A stretch of 64,000 nt of DNA from Octopus vulgaris (taxonomy: Eukaryota): the NCBI GenBank assembly GCA_951406725.2, contig OX597816.1, positions 157,790,001 to 157,854,000 of the forward strand. Direction: 5' to 3'. Each line of letters starts with the position of its first letter. The stretch's first letter is position 1. Position numbers: made by a program. Shown here piece after piece: positions 6,001 to 18,700 of this stretch.

Positions 6001-6735
6001 AATTTCGAGGAATGGGGTAAATCAATTACATTTATCCCAGTGCTTAACTAGTACTTATTATATTGACCCACGAAGGGATGAAAGGCAAAGTTGACCATGG
6101 CAGAATTTGAACTCGGATGGACAAAATGCCACTAAATGTTTAGCTCAGTGAGCTAACAACTCTGCCAACTCACCACCTTTCTCCTTAGGAATACTATTGG
6201 ATTGGTGCATAATTATTGCAGCATTTTTCCAACAAATTTTATTCAACAAAAAAAATAACAACATGTAACAAAAAAAATCTTTAAATGATTATTCCAGAGC
6301 ATATTCACCATCTACTTCAATTACTGCTTCCCATTTGCTCAGCAGATGGTCAGACCATCATTTAAAAATGTTTTTGTTAAATATTGTTATTGTTTTTGTT
6401 GAATAAAATTTGTTGAAAAAACGCTGCAATGATTATGCACCAACCCAATAAATCTAATACTTACCACTAAACTCTCCTTTGTCAAGAAAGTCCTTCAACT
6501 CAATCGCATCAGAATTCAGTATGCAGCCAAGGTCTTTCAAATTTGATCTTAAAGAATTAGTGTCGCAAACAGGATGAGTGAGACAGATGTTCAAATGTAA
6601 AACGCAGTTATAATACTAAAATGATAAAAAACAAAAAAAGGTAAGTAGAAGATTATATAGAATTCAAGGTATCTAACAACTTAATATCTTAACATCAATA
6701 TACACACACACATATATATGTGTGTATATATATAC

Positions 6736-6814
<79 letters not shown>

Positions 6815-15700: not shown

Positions 15701-18700
15701 CATGTATATGGGAGAGAAGGTTAACTACGCACTGCTGTGAAGACGGTTACTGAAAGCAAACCCCTTGTACAAAGCACCTGTGAATAAACGGTTATTGAAT
15801 TTACTCCGTCTGAGAACTTCATTCTTCCTATTTCCAGCTCCTTGAATCAACAGAATAATTATAATAGAAGATATATGTACCACCTAACTGGCCCTCGTGC
15901 CGGTGGCACGTAAAAACTCCCACTACACTCTCGGAGTGGTTGGCATTAGGAAGGGCATCCAGCTGTAGAAACTCTGCCAGATCAGATTGGAGTCTGGTTC
16001 GCCAGACCTCAGTCAAATCGTCCAACCCATGCTAGCATGGAAAGCGGACGTTAAATGGTGATGATGATGATGATGATGATACCCCAAAAGTATCATAAAA
16101 ACCTTCCTTCCATTTATAAAGCATTTGATAACAGTAATAACAATCAAAGAATTTGCCAGCAAAATCTTATAAAATGACAATGTTCTAAAAGATGTACATG
16201 ATAAATAAAGGTTTTTAGTTAAATGTTCATTTTGAGACGATTAAATAAACATCGGTTATCCTGCCACCTTTCATACTGATTTTTTAATTTTCCTTGGCCT
16301 CCTTGGCGAAGAAGTTTCGCATGTCGTAGCACAGATTTCCGTCGATTTCCGTAAAAAACTTTTATTTTTTTACATAAGTAATGAGAGCGAAAGAGACTAA
16401 GAGGAAGCGATTTTACGACGAGAAGGTTTCTCTTTGAAATCGGCCTGTGTGTGTTTGATGGGGTGTGGGAGACAGACAGTATGTTGTGTAAGTGAAGTGC
16501 TTCTGTTAGTGTGTGCGAAGAGACAGAGAGAGTAATGTGTGAAAGAGAGAGATAACTGATTTTTTACTCGGTGTATGTGTATATGTATGTATGCATGTAT
16601 GTGTGTGTGTGTGTATGTATCTATGTATGTGTGTGTGTGTAAGTATGTGTGTGTGTATGTATGTATGTATGGCCGATTCATCGTAATTTTTTACTCGGTG
16701 TATGTGTATATGTATGTCTGCATGTATGTGTGTGTGTGTGTATGTTATGTATCTATGTATGTGTGTATGTGTATGTATGTATGTGTGTATGTATGTATGG
16801 TCGATTCAGTGTAATTTTTTACTCGGTGTATGTGTATATGTATGTCTGCATGTATGTGTGTGTGTGTATGTATCTATGTGTGTGTGTGTGTGTGTAAGTA
16901 TGTGTGTGTGTATGTATGTATGTATGTATGTGTGTGTGTGTATGTATCTATGTATGTGTGTGTGTGTATGTATGTATGTATGGCCGATTCATAGTAATTT
17001 TTTACTCGGTGTATGTGTATATGTATGTCTGTCTCTTCACACACACTAACAGAAGCACTTCACTTACACAACATACTGTCTGTCTCCCACACCCCATCAA
17101 ACACACACAGGCCGACTTCAAAGTGAAACCTTCTCGTCGTAAAATCGCTTCCTCTTAGTCTCTTTCGCTCTCATTACTTATGTAAAAAAATAAAAGTTTT
17201 TTACGGAAATCGACGGAAATCTGTGCTACTACAACCGAAACTATGCCTTTTCGGCGAAGTTGGCGAAGTTGCCTTTTCGGCGAAGTTTCATCTGTGCTAC
17301 TACAACCGAAACTATGCCTTTTCCTTTCTTTTATAATTTAATTTTTTTTTATTCCATAAAAATAAAGAAAATGTAAATCAAAGCAGGCTGTATTTAGTAC
17401 AATTAAGAGGTTATTTGCTTAAAGGTAATCCGGTTCTGACCTCACTACACAGTACGAGAATGCTTTTACCCTCCAGCCTTTTACACTTACGTTGAGATCT
17501 TACCGGGAAGTATTGATGCGTCTTTTAGAGAAAAAAAATACAAAAGTTAAGAAAATAACGTATATAGCCTAATGCGCACCTGAATATAAGTATAGAAAGA
17601 ACTTTAGGTATTCATGAAAACTATTCACTGCAACACTAAGCCATTTCAAAACTCACAGCAACTACTAAAAAGTTAGAACAGGGCTGGCGAACCCAATCAC
17701 AACTGCCCCATTCAGTATTTGTGTTACTGTTGTTTGGCTCAGCCCTGATCAAACATATTTATCAACGAAATACATTCCAACTGAAGTAAACCTGTCTTTT
17801 TGTATTTTTCAGACAGTTATTCATAAAATTACATAATCGAATGAGTTCTCCCCTTCTTTTGAAAACGGCAGAGTTTAATTTGAGGGATTTGTTTGTTGTT
17901 TCTTGCAGGTGAAATGACCACGTAGAGCCTCTTTCGTTAGCTCACAAGTTGCAGACGTATTTATAAGGGCGTAGACATATGGAGAACGGAATGTACCTGA
18001 CTTATCTCAAGTTTTATTCATATACATAGTCACTTCTTTTTATAATGAAGCCCCCACCAATGTTGTCTAATCACAGCGGATTTATCACGATCAATAAAAA
18101 CTTCCGTCTTTCATATATTTTTGTTTGACTTTTTTCAGAATTAATGTATTTCTAACTACATTATTTATCCTTCTTTTTTTAAAACTGTCTCGGGTGATTT
18201 AAGGGATAGTTATTATTTCCAAGAAATTAAGCGACTGAGAAGAGATATCTCACACAAACATTAATCTAGTAGGTGGGTGCATATATACGAAGGTGGTTTT
18301 TCTGCAGGTGTGTGTTAAAGTGTTCACACAAGACACATGTATAAGGTAAAAGTGAAATTAACAATGTATACGTATGTATGTTATATATATATATATATAT
18401 ATATATTATTATTATATATGTGTGTGTGTGTGTTTTTACATATTAAAGTCACGGAAAGTCATAACTTACCTCCAATCTTTCAAAGCATCCAGTTGTGTCA
18501 TGATTTCTCTCTAAAACTGTTGCTCGAATTTATTCGAAGAGAAAAGAAAAGTTATTAAAATGCAGAGATAAGCGATTTTAAAAAAAAAGGCACTCTCTTT
18601 GACGTCGTTAATAAAACTATTCAGTCATACTGGAATTGTAGTTAATAAATATATGTAACCTGGAGAAACTATAACAAGGTAACTGCAGATTAAATGGCAA

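What the first reader, a model, noticed from the sequence alone, without database searches (positions are those of the whole stretch)
6465..18501. Hidden tandem Csk-like paralog that appears to lack the SH3 domain
Seen: about 29 kb downstream of the Csk stop, on the same strand, three exons with canonical splice sites join in frame as MTQLDALKDWR|WFHG...LIE|YYNC...DKGEFS. The ATG has an in-frame stop just upstream and I found no SH3-like exon between the two genes. Established: Csk is SH3-SH2-kinase, and from memory its SH2 exon also runs WFHG to LVE and an intron follows KGEFG in phase 1, the same positions as here. Inference: a lineage-specific, strongly diverged Csk duplicate whose frames are still open, i.e. 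a possible new regulator of Src-family signalling. Only one of its exons shows in the ORF track.
Basis: partly seen in the sequence, partly recalled or inferred. Interest (0 to 1): 0.85.

Follow-up and report, generated by a model that had tools for sequence, protein, structure and literature searches.

The report
SH3-less Csk kinase duplicate in octopus
Just downstream of the octopus Csk gene lies a fast-evolving second copy that has lost its SH3 domain but keeps the parts that recognise Src-family kinases; it is real and already in public gene catalogues, but I found no study of it.

Summary
Three minus-strand exons (18501-18470, 14253-14034, 6615-6465) have canonical GT-AG borders. Read in order, they match the first 134 residues of a public 373-aa protein: Octopus vulgaris CAI9720293.1 and O. 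sinensis XP_029633376.1. So the gene is annotated, not hidden. Its remaining exons lie beyond the window start.

It belongs to the Csk family. All named close hits that carry a family name are Csk or Matk. It scores 307 bits against the Csk crystal chain, against 241 for Abl and 215 for Src. All five Csk/Chk-specific Src-docking residues are kept. It shares a phase-1 intron with the neighbouring Csk.

No SH3 exon exists anywhere in the window (best E about 9; real Csk SH3 exon pieces score 1e-14 and 7e-11). None of the four octopod models has an SH3 domain.

Orthologues were found only in octopods (three Octopus species and Argonauta). A tree without long branches joins it to octopus Csk (93/88), and an AU test does not reject that placement.

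It evolves about seven times faster than Csk but in a constrained pattern. In all four species it has lost Trp188, the HRD arginine and Glu127.

Most likely it is a re-targeted, SH3-independent and probably weaker inhibitor of Src-family kinases. Expression and activity are untested.

The parts
18470..18501 (-). Coding exon 1 of the Csk paralog: ATG plus 10 codons and two bases of an Arg codon (MTQLDALKDW + AG). The donor GT is at 18469-18468.
   Evidence: Read. Matches residues 1-11 of P0001 at 11 of 11 residues.
18511..18513 (-). In-frame TAG, 9 bases upstream of the ATG. Its AG (18512-18511), preceded by TTTT, could also be a splice acceptor for an unseen upstream exon or 5' UTR exon.
   Evidence: Read. 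Whether it is used cannot be tested without RNA data.
14254..18469 (-). Intron 1 (GT..AG), 4,216 bases.
   Evidence: No SH2- or SH3-like frame inside it.
14034..14253 (-). Exon 2: the whole SH2 domain (WFHG..LIE), 220 bases. It starts with the third base of the Arg codon.
   Evidence: Pfam SH2 E 8.1e-24. Csk-family SH2 profile 92.8 bits, the only hit in the window below E 1. 100% identical to P0001. 47.9% identical to octopus Csk SH2 by tblastn.
6616..14033 (-). Intron 2 (GT..AG), 7,418 bases.
6465..6615 (-). Exon 3: SH2-kinase linker and the start of the kinase N-lobe, up to the glycine-rich loop (..DKGEFS + G). It ends in phase 1.
   Evidence: Matches P0001 residues 85-134. No Pfam family on its own. 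Aligns to the octopus Csk linker at E 0.023.
1..6464 (-). First 6.4 kb of intron 3. The remaining kinase exons (P0001 residues 135-373) lie beyond the window start.
   Evidence: In a tblastn of P0001, residues 135-373 hit only the Csk exons at 47.6-62.9 kb, at 33-60% identity. The region holds Tc1/mariner-like transposase fragments at 1029-1765.
18502..47651 (-). 29,150-base spacer between the Csk stop codon and the paralog's ATG. It is rich in repeats and transposon remnants and has no SH3-like coding piece.
   Evidence: A profile of the SH3 domain plus linker scored E 9 to 10 at best against 3,732 six-frame peptides of the whole window. Transposase and reverse-transcriptase fragments are present.
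47652..62894 (-). Last six coding exons of the neighbouring true Csk gene (kinase domain). First exon: 62894-62792. The others, bounded by tblastn matches only: about 57184-57026, 55934-55818, 52725-52627, 49976-49872 and 47828-47655. Stop codon at 47654-47652.
   Evidence: tblastn of the O. vulgaris Csk protein P0124: three exons match at 100%; the other three are diluted by intron read-through at their ends. The acceptor at 62896-62895 splits the Asp codon after KGEFG in phase 1, the same place and phase as the paralog's intron 3.

Best explanation
This is the 5' third of a real, separate gene. It is a tandem duplicate of Csk that arose in the cephalopod lineage, no later than the common ancestor of Octopus and Argonauta. 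It lost the SH3 exons and then evolved quickly under constraint.

The protein (373 aa in O. vulgaris) consists of a short N-terminus, an SH2 domain, a linker and a tyrosine-kinase domain.

Inferred mechanism:
- The intact phosphotyrosine pocket of the SH2 domain brings the protein to phosphorylated partners. These differ from Csk's partners, because the specificity residue Glu127 has become Ile, Phe or Thr.
- The unchanged Csk/Chk docking surface (Arg279, Ser280, Arg281, Arg283, Phe382) then engages Src-family kinases.
- The protein restrains them by phosphorylating their C-terminal tyrosine, probably with lower intrinsic activity than Csk, and/or by Chk-like binding without catalysis.
- It is cut off from the two jobs of the Csk SH3 domain: activating the kinase through the Arg68-Trp188 contact, and recruiting PEST-type phosphatases.

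What is shown and what is inferred:
- Shown: gene structure, family, absence of SH3, residue states, taxonomic spread, constrained divergence.
- Inferred: expression, substrate, catalytic strength, SH2 targets.
For: **Structure and identity**
- Exons and splice sites.
- Exact match to public models CAI9720293.1 and XP_029633376.1.

**Family**
- Of 120 listed hits to the full protein, the named hits below the three paralog records (the query's own cluster, Argonauta, O. bimaculoides) that carry a family name are Csk, Csk-like or Matk. All are at 39-44% identity.
- Against solved structures, Csk 1k9a scores 307.4 bits in one stretch over residues 11-365. ABL1 scores 241 and Src 215.
- For the SH2 exon alone, the best single-domain score is Csk at 56.9 bits. 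SHP2 N-SH2 scores 40.5 and Syk C-SH2 38.9.
- Foldseek's top six hits are the Csk 1k9a chains. The model has pLDDT 84.4 and pTM 0.79.

**Docking site**
- The review PMC10016382 (passages read) names R279, S280, R281, R283 and F382 as conserved only in Csk and Chk and needed for Src recognition.
- All five are kept in 4 of 4 full-length paralogs.

**Catalytic and SH2 residues**
- Catalytic K222, E236, D314, N319 and DFG, and the SH2 residues Arg107 and His128, are kept in 4 of 4.

**No SH3**
-.

**Co-loss of the SH3 partner**
- Trp188 is Trp in 36 of 36 Csk/Matk rows, but Cys, Cys, Tyr and Tyr in the paralogs.
- The review states that the Arg68-Trp188 cation-pi contact mediates SH3 activation.

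**Glu127**
- Glu127 is Ile, Ile, Phe and Thr in the paralogs.
- The review states that Glu127 (Csk) versus Ile167 (Chk) sets SH2 specificity.

**Constraint**
- O. vulgaris and Argonauta paralogs are identical at 77 of 96 Csk-conserved columns but at only 141 of 277 other columns (Fisher p 3e-7).

**Origin**
- Same strand, 29 kb from Csk.
- Shared phase-1 intron.
- In the 38-row tree the paralogs and octopus Csk sit on one side of a branch, with support 93/88.
- AU test p 0.513, with the constrained tree 0.10 log-likelihood units better.
- The paralog shares 7 of 30 octopus-Csk signature residues (binomial p 0.026 against a 10% expectation).
Against: - I could see no transcript evidence. The paralog's own cluster holds only genome-derived records.
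- The 44-row kinase-only tree placed the paralog clade on a long stem (0.95) next to the crinoid sequences. It also starred a mollusc Csk clade that excludes the paralog.
- No outgroup was available, so the trees are unrooted.
- Several features argue for weak or absent catalysis:
  - The first glycine of the glycine-rich loop is Asp in 3 of 4 paralogs.
  - The third glycine is Ser or Cys in 4 of 4.
  - The HRD arginine is Cys in 4 of 4.
  - The review says deleting the Csk SH3 domain lowers activity more than 10-fold, and that the Csk catalytic domain alone is largely inactive.
- Argonauta has lost the alphaA2 arginine of the SH2 domain.
- The O. bimaculoides model carries a different 62-aa N-terminus, so the true 5' end is unsettled.
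- The AlphaFold model superposes on Csk only domain by domain (rmsd about 14.6 A, TM 0.66).
Confidence: 0.6

Rival explanations
1. Chk-like pseudo-enzyme. The protein folds and docks onto Src-family kinases, but it is catalytically very poor or dead. It acts only by binding, as a non-catalytic inhibitor or as a competitor that shields Src from Csk.
For: - Glycine-loop positions 1 and 3 are changed, and the HRD Arg is Cys, in all paralogs.
- The SH3 domain and Trp188, both needed to activate Csk, are lost.
- Chk is described as a poor catalyst but an efficient non-catalytic inhibitor (PMC10016382 passages; PMC5547543 title and abstract only).
Against: - K222, E236, D314, N319 and DFG are all kept in 4 of 4 paralogs.
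- The middle glycine of the loop is kept in 4 of 4, and O. bimaculoides keeps the first glycine.
- A dead kinase would not be expected to hold every catalytic residue since the Octopus-Argonauta split.
Confidence: 0.2
2. The gene is not truly SH3-less. Upstream exons, or read-through transcripts from the Csk gene on the same strand, splice SH3-coding sequence into the acceptor at 18512-18511 or directly into the SH2 exon.
For: - A usable TTTTAG acceptor lies 9 bases before the ATG, in frame.
- Csk sits upstream on the same strand.
- Mollusc Csk genes already swap alternative SH2 exons.
- The O. bimaculoides model uses another 5' exon.
Against: - No SH3-like piece exists in any frame of the 64 kb, including the 29 kb spacer, while control pieces score E 1e-14 and 7e-11.
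- 3 of 4 species' models start 11-12 residues before WFHG. The fourth has a 62-aa N-terminus without SH3 (Pfam; profile score 2.7).
- The search for longer proteins containing this SH2 exon returned only the 373-aa record (1 hit among 18 candidates).
- Trp188, the partner of the SH3-SH2 linker, is lost.
Confidence: 0.07
3. The gene is an old paralog that arose before the molluscs diversified, or earlier, and was lost everywhere except in octopods. It is not a cephalopod-lineage duplicate.
For: - In the 44-row tree the clade branches outside the starred mollusc Csk clade, near the crinoids.
- Its identity to octopus Csk (48.8% in the kinase region) is only slightly above its identity to oyster Csk (45.3%) or frog Csk (43.4%).
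Against: - That placement joins long branches. With six long or odd rows removed, the clade attaches to octopus Csk (93/88).
- The constrained tree is not worse (AU p 0.513).
- The paralog shares 7 of 30 octopus-Csk signature residues, against 9 of 63 for crinoids.
- It is adjacent to Csk on the same strand.
- No relative above 50% identity exists outside octopods among 1.84 billion representatives.
Confidence: 0.08
4. The gene is a decaying or unexpressed duplicate that gene predictors annotate only because its frames are still open.
For: - It evolves about seven times faster than Csk: 84.1% against 97.7% identity between O. vulgaris and O. bimaculoides over the same 220 columns.
- Conserved residues have been lost (26 of 96 Csk-conserved columns changed in at least one paralog).
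- There are no transcript-derived records in its cluster.
Against: - Complete open reading frames of 373-424 aa survive in four species of two families.
- Divergence is concentrated away from Csk-conserved columns (p 3e-7).
- All catalytic and docking residues are kept.
- The predicted fold is confident.
Confidence: 0.05

Closest known systems
Csk (C-terminal Src kinase), including the neighbouring octopus Csk gene (P0124, CAI9720294.1)
   Same: - SH2-linker-kinase order, colinear over residues 11-365.
- All five Src-docking residues are kept.
- No tyrosine in the activation segment, no Gly2 for myristoylation and no C-terminal tail tyrosine.
- Shared phase-1 intron after the glycine loop.
   Different: - No SH3 domain and no SH3-SH2 linker.
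- Trp188, Glu127, the HRD arginine and two glycine-loop positions are replaced.
- Only 49% identical to octopus Csk.
- Evolves about seven times faster than Csk.
Chk/Matk, the vertebrate second member of the Csk family
   Same: - A second, faster-evolving Csk-family gene that keeps the docking site.
- Carries a hydrophobic residue where Csk has Glu127 (Ile167 in Chk, per PMC10016382).
- It may, like Chk, rely more on binding than on catalysis.
   Different: - Independent origin: Matk groups with vertebrate Csk, not with the octopod clade.
- The Matk records listed often carry SH3 Pfam domains; the octopod protein has none.
Predicted SH3-less or SH3-truncated isoforms of ordinary Csk genes
   Same: Examples are crinoid isoform X2 (P0006, P0009; 379-381 aa), frog isoform X2 (P0091; 384 aa) and O. 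sinensis isoform X5 (P0123; 411 aa). All are SH2-kinase proteins that start a few residues before WFHG.
   Different: - They are alternative first exons of a gene that also makes the full SH3 form.
- The two crinoid rows and the O. sinensis row keep Trp188 and the HRD arginine: all 36 non-paralog rows of alignment A1 do, and the two crinoid rows and P0091 are among them; P0123 was read.
- Here the SH3-less form is a separate locus, fixed since the split of the two octopod families.
Fes/Fer kinases (SH2-kinase without SH3)
   Same: The SH2 domain lies directly before the kinase, with no SH3. Fes chains superpose on the whole predicted model with somewhat lower rmsd (about 12 A).
   Different: - Only 30% identity.
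- The Csk/Chk docking residues are described as unique to Csk and Chk among tyrosine kinases.
- Fes and Fer carry an N-terminal F-BAR region (recalled, not tested).

Membership tests
Csk family of cytoplasmic tyrosine kinases | Best and colinear similarity to Csk over SH2, linker and kinase | tested here: met
   - 1k9a Csk scores 307.4 bits in one stretch over residues 11-365. ABL1 scores 241 and Src 215.
- The named hits below the paralog records that carry a family name are Csk, Csk-like or Matk.
- Foldseek's top six hits are Csk chains.
Csk family of cytoplasmic tyrosine kinases | Csk/Chk-specific substrate-docking residues Arg279, Ser280, Arg281, Arg283 and Phe382 | tested here: met
   The residues are named in PMC10016382 (passages). 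They were mapped through the 1k9a alignment. All five are present in 4 of 4 full-length paralogs.
Csk family of cytoplasmic tyrosine kinases | SH3-SH2-kinase domain organisation | tested here: not met
   - PMC8662651 (passages) describes SH3-SH2-kinase as the core organisation of the family.
- Pfam finds only SH2 and kinase in P0001, P0003 and P0337.
- No SH3-like frame exists in the window, with controls.
Csk family of cytoplasmic tyrosine kinases | No activation-loop tyrosine, no N-terminal myristoylation glycine, no C-terminal regulatory tyrosine (feature list recalled from general knowledge) | tested here: met
   The activation segments, first 15 and last 15 residues of the four paralogs contain no Tyr at these places. 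Residue 2 is Thr, Thr, Asp and Glu.
Csk family of cytoplasmic tyrosine kinases | Monophyly with Csk in a tree rooted by other tyrosine-kinase families | tested here: inconclusive
   No non-Csk sequences from named references were at hand, so the trees are unrooted. Within the family, the placement with octopus Csk has support 93/88 in one tree and is not rejected in the other.
Csk family of cytoplasmic tyrosine kinases | Gene structure shared with Csk | tested here: met
   - A phase-1 intron lies in the codon after GEF(G/S) in both genes.
- SH2 exon limits are consistent with the isoform-variable block of Csk, between QTMPW and LVEHY.
- The other introns lie outside the window.
Csk family of cytoplasmic tyrosine kinases | Phosphorylates the C-terminal regulatory tyrosine of Src-family kinases | not testable with these tools
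   This needs recombinant protein and an octopus Src substrate.
Active protein kinase (as opposed to pseudokinase) | VAIK Lys, alphaC Glu, HRD Asp, catalytic-loop Asn and DFG Asp all present | tested here: met
   K149, E163, D239, N244 and D257 (P0001 numbering) are kept in 4 of 4 paralogs.
Active protein kinase (as opposed to pseudokinase) | Canonical GxGxxG loop and HRD arginine | tested here: not met
   The loop reads DKGEFS, DKGEFS, GKGEFS and DKGESC. HRD is HCD in 4 of 4.
Chk/Matk | Membership of the vertebrate Matk clade | tested here: not met
   The four Matk rows form a starred clade with vertebrate Csk, away from the octopod clade.

The most novel reading that the evidence does not exclude
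Octopods have independently evolved their own second inhibitor of Src-family kinases, as vertebrates did with Chk/Matk. They did it by a different route. They discarded the SH3 domain together with its contact residue Trp188. They switched the SH2 specificity residue to a hydrophobic, Chk-like one. They also rewired the catalytic loop (HCD). The result would be a Csk-family kinase whose activity no longer depends on the SH3 clamp and which is recruited to a different set of phosphotyrosine sites. It would be a natural experiment on how Csk is switched on.
Probability: 0.3. Interest if true: 0.55.

Novelty: new variant of a known kind. Interest (0 to 1): 0.35.

Why it matters
Csk is the main brake on Src-family kinases. 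Its SH3-SH2-kinase layout is described as ancient and conserved (PMC8662651).

A separate, conserved locus that dispenses with the SH3 domain and with Trp188, yet keeps the Src-docking surface, tests two questions. How far does Csk activation really need the SH3 clamp? How can a second Src inhibitor be built?

It also adds a lineage-restricted signalling gene to cephalopods. On the practical side, public annotation calls both neighbours simply CSK. That can mislead orthology tables and expression studies that count "CSK" transcripts.

The finding is not a discovery of an unannotated gene.

Tried and rejected
- **Another SH2-kinase family (Abl, Src, Tec, Syk, Fes).** Rejected on bit scores and docking residues. 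In the SH2-only search, Syk and SHP2 ranked first only because two SH2 domains were summed. Their per-domain scores are lower than Csk's.
- **A second, alternative SH2 exon for the paralog.** None found: the Csk SH2 profile hits only 13959-14300.
- **Exon 4 inside the window.** Not found.
- **A counterpart of the O. bimaculoides 62-aa N-terminus in the window.** The only match is weak, at 14823-14686, with a stop codon and E 0.51. I treat it as noise.
- **More paralog-like sequences among stored hits.** The HCD variant together with the docking motif occurs only in the six octopod paralog records that span those motifs, out of 339 stored proteins. Five other records with a non-R HxD lack the docking motif.
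- **Literature.** Five searches found nothing on an octopod or mollusc Csk duplicate. One O. maya testis transcriptome paper lists "CSK" among heat-induced transcripts without saying which gene (PMC6341066, passages).
- **Steps not done.**
  - The three exons were not joined. Each was searched on its own.
  - dN/dS was not computed, because no orthologue coding DNA was available.
  - Supplements of papers were closed and were not needed.
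Full report
**Observation**

All three exons are on the minus strand.

- Exon 1: an ATG at 18501 opens a 32-base coding exon that ends at 18470, before GTAAGT.
- Exon 2: runs from 14253, after a pyrimidine tract and CAG, to 14034, before GTATGG. It encodes WFHG..LIE.
- Exon 3: runs from 6615, after TTTTAG, to 6465, before GTAAGT. It leaves one base over, so the intron is in phase 1.
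- The frames join as ..DWR|WFHG.. and ..LIE|YYNC..
- An in-frame TAG lies 9 bases before the ATG. Its AG could also be an acceptor.

The window has no N. The stop codon of the upstream gene is at 47654-47652, so the two coding regions are 29,150 bases apart on the same strand.

**The gene is annotated, not hidden**

Each was searched on its own.

- Exon 2 matches Pfam SH2 at E 8.1e-24. Exon 3 has no family of its own.
- A search with exon 2 for longer proteins gave one hit among 18 candidates: a 373-aa protein, 100% identical over the whole exon.
- Its cluster holds two records: CAI9720293.1 (O. vulgaris, labelled CSK isoform X3) and XP_029633376.1 (O. sinensis, labelled tyrosine-protein kinase CSK).
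- All later whole-length comparisons used this public record by its id, not a join of my own.
- Residues 135-373 of it have no counterpart in the window. They match only the Csk exons, at 33-60% identity. The gene therefore runs off the window start, and only its first three coding exons are here.

**The neighbour**

The six minus-strand exons between 62894 and 47652 belong to the true Csk gene.

- They match the 448-aa O. vulgaris Csk (CAI9720294.1, the next accession number after the paralog).
- In all three Octopus species, the paralog and Csk records sit on the same chromosome-sized contig.

**Family**

- With the full public protein, 1,384 proteins scored E 1e-20 or better among 3,658 candidates.
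- Of the 120 listed, the first three were paralog records: the query's own cluster, Argonauta and O. bimaculoides.
- Below them, identities were 39-44%. Every named hit that carries a family name is Csk, Csk-like or Matk.
- Against solved structures, Csk (1k9a) scores 307.4 bits in a single stretch over residues 11-365. ABL1 scores 241 and Src 215. An EGFR chain ranks first only because it contains two kinase domains of about 160 bits each.
- For the SH2 exon alone, Syk and SHP2 rank first by summed score, but their best single domains score 38.9 and 40.5 bits. The isolated Csk SH2 scores 56.9.
- The review PMC10016382 (passages read) names Arg279, Ser280, Arg281, Arg283 and Phe382 as residues conserved only in Csk and Chk and required for recognising Src. 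All five are present in all four full-length paralogs.
- The neighbouring Csk exon at 62894 begins one base into the Asp codon after KGEFG. This is the same place and phase as the paralog's intron 3.
- An AlphaFold2 model built with 40 aligned sequences is confident (pLDDT 84.4, pTM 0.79). Its six best structural matches are the Csk chains of 1k9a. It superposes only domain by domain (rmsd about 14.6 A).

**No SH3 domain**

- I built a profile of the Csk N-terminus (SH3 plus linker) from 137 homologues. I ran it at full sensitivity against all 3,732 six-frame peptides of 10 residues or more. The best score was 4.7 bits (E 10), on the plus strand.
- As a control I rebuilt the profile without octopus sequences (133 rows). 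The two exon-sized pieces of the octopus Csk SH3 scored E 7.2e-11 and 1.3e-14 in the same database. Twenty-residue pieces scored 4e-4 and 0.022. The best window peptide scored E 9.1.
- A Csk SH2 profile (166 rows, paralogs left out) found the paralog's SH2 exon at 92.8 bits and nothing else below E 1. An SH3 as diverged as this SH2 should therefore have been seen.
- Pfam finds only SH2 and kinase domains in the O. vulgaris, Argonauta and O. bimaculoides proteins.
- The newer O. bimaculoides model (XP_052822685.1, 424 aa) has a different 62-residue N-terminus. It is not SH3-like (profile score 2.7) and has no counterpart in this window.
- This shows that the 5' end is not settled. Use of the acceptor at 18512-18511 cannot be excluded without RNA data.

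**Distribution and origin**

- Relatives closer than about 45% identity were found only in octopods: O. sinensis (99%), O. bimaculoides (80-84%) and Argonauta hians (59-60%; 374 aa, same architecture).
- An exhaustive HMMER search of 1.84 billion representatives gave no other protein above 50% identity.
- Octopus and Argonauta belong to different families of Incirrata.
- Cephalopod coverage of these libraries is unknown. Even Argonauta's own Csk did not appear under a name. Absence from squids is therefore not shown.
- A 44-row kinase-domain tree put the four paralogs in a 100/100 clade on a long stem (0.95), next to the long crinoid branch and outside a starred mollusc Csk clade.
- Forcing paralogs plus octopus Csk into one clade gave a tree 0.10 log-likelihood units better than the free search (AU p 0.513).
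- I then dropped six long or odd rows: two crinoids, a nematode, a tunicate, Holothuria and the Bradybaena 379-aa protein. With linker plus kinase columns (296), paralogs and octopus Csk fall on one side of a branch with support 93/88.
- Of 30 columns where octopus Csk has a state rare elsewhere, the O. vulgaris paralog shares 7 (binomial p 0.026 against a 10% expectation). For crinoids the figure is 9 of 63 (p 0.17).
- No outgroup from a named reference was at hand, so the trees are unrooted.
- Taken with the tandem position, I read this as a duplication in the cephalopod lineage, at the latest before the Octopus-Argonauta split. An older origin is not excluded.

**Constraint and change**

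- Between O. vulgaris and O. bimaculoides, the paralog is 84.1% identical and Csk 97.7%, over the same 220 columns. The paralog is thus about seven times more diverged.
- The divergence is not random. O. vulgaris and Argonauta paralogs agree at 77 of 96 columns that are at least 95% conserved in 39 Csk/Matk rows, but at only 141 of 277 other columns (Fisher p 3e-7).
- Kept in 4 of 4 paralogs:
  - SH2 residues Arg107 and His128
  - Lys222, Glu236, Asp314, Asn319 and DFG
  - the five docking residues
- Changed:
  - Trp188 is Cys, Cys, Tyr and Tyr, against Trp in all 36 other rows.
  - The HRD arginine is Cys in 4 of 4.
  - Gly202 is Asp in 3 of 4.
  - Gly207 is Ser or Cys in 4 of 4.
  - Glu127 is Ile, Ile, Phe and Thr.
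- The review states three relevant points:
  - The Arg68-Trp188 cation-pi contact carries the activating effect of the SH3 domain, and its loss equals deleting the SH3.
  - Glu127 in Csk versus Ile167 in Chk largely sets SH2 specificity.
  - Chk can inhibit Src-family kinases by tight binding without catalysis.
- The paralog has therefore lost both halves of the SH3 clamp and carries a Chk-like SH2 determinant.

**Most likely mechanism**

I think the protein is a re-targeted brake on Src-family kinases.

- Its SH2 domain binds phosphotyrosine sites other than those used by Csk.
- The conserved docking surface engages Src-family kinases.
- Inhibition follows by tail phosphorylation at reduced intrinsic rate, by Chk-like binding, or both.
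- There is no SH3-mediated activation and no phosphatase recruitment.

Structure, family, residue states and constraint are shown. Expression, substrates and activity are inferred.

Rivals are a binding-only pseudo-enzyme, hidden SH3-containing transcripts, an old paralog, and a decaying copy. Their evidence is given in the Rival explanations section.

**Novelty**

- The gene models are public, under the undifferentiated names CSK or CSK-like.
- Five full-text searches found no description of an octopod or mollusc Csk duplicate.
- A holozoan kinome study describes SH3-SH2-kinase as the conserved layout of the family and does not mention molluscs (PMC8662651, passages).
- SH3-less Csk forms are predicted elsewhere, but as isoforms of the ordinary gene (crinoids, a frog, O. 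sinensis isoform X5).
- I rate it a new variant of a known kind, of moderate interest.

**Unchecked**

- RNA support and the true 5' end.
- Synteny and presence in other cephalopods.
- dN/dS, because no orthologue coding DNA was available.
- Rooted phylogeny.
- Any biochemistry.

Noticed in passing
Outside the window (Csk exons above 64000); seen in proteins P0122 versus P0124/P0125, P0127 versus P0134, and P0027 versus P0151: Mollusc Csk genes appear to carry two mutually exclusive SH2 exons. Isoforms of one gene, or of close species, differ only in the block from WFHG to LVEHY. One type reads ..KLTIDEE.. and the other ..KLEVDGGD.. The split is present in octopus, scallops and oysters. The paralog's SH2 is closer to the first type (49.3% against 37.0% identity). 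One literature search found no description.
   Followed up: partly
window 26977-27594 (-), 1029-1298 (-) and 1442-1765 (-): Tc1/mariner-like transposase remnants lie in the Csk-paralog spacer and in intron 3 of the paralog. Pfam hits: DDE_3 at E 1.4e-9 and 2.1e-7; HTH_Tnp_Tc3_2 at E 1.4e-17.
   Followed up: partly
window 38473-39306 (-); similar frames at about 5093-5858 (-), 43665-44535 (-) and 54549-55333 (-): Repeated retroelement fragments are present. Pfam hits are a weak reverse-transcriptase match (RVT_1, E 5.5e-4) and a PHD-like zinc-finger frame (E 1.3e-6). Near-identical peptide strings recur at several places, by eye in the ORF lists.
   Followed up: partly
many places on both strands, for example window 7598-7891 (+), 15831-16031 (-), 23695-24021 (-), 35569-35787 (-), 55413-55766 (+) and 61643-61894 (-): A short dispersed repeat gives the same pseudo-peptide (..[34 protein letters not shown]..) in the ORF listings. 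It is probably a SINE-like element abundant in this genome.
   Followed up: no
window 18380-18440 and 6676-6950: Long TA/CA microsatellites lie right after the donor of exon 1 and about 60-330 bases upstream of exon 3. They give the YIYIYI and HTHTHT frames in the ORF lists.
   Followed up: no
protein P0337 (O. bimaculoides XP_052822685.1); weak echo at window 14686-14823 (-): The newer O. bimaculoides model of the paralog starts with a different 62-residue N-terminus that matches no Pfam family. Its only echo in this window is a weak match with a stop codon (E 0.51), about 430-570 bases upstream of the SH2 exon.
   Followed up: partly
proteins P0005 (Bradybaena similaris, 379 aa) and P0313 (unnamed, 466 aa): Other Csk-like records with only 10-15 residues before the SH2 domain exist outside cephalopods. 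The snail protein sits inside the gastropod Csk clade on a long branch (0.43). Whether these are truncated models, isoforms or separate SH3-less genes was not examined.
   Followed up: no
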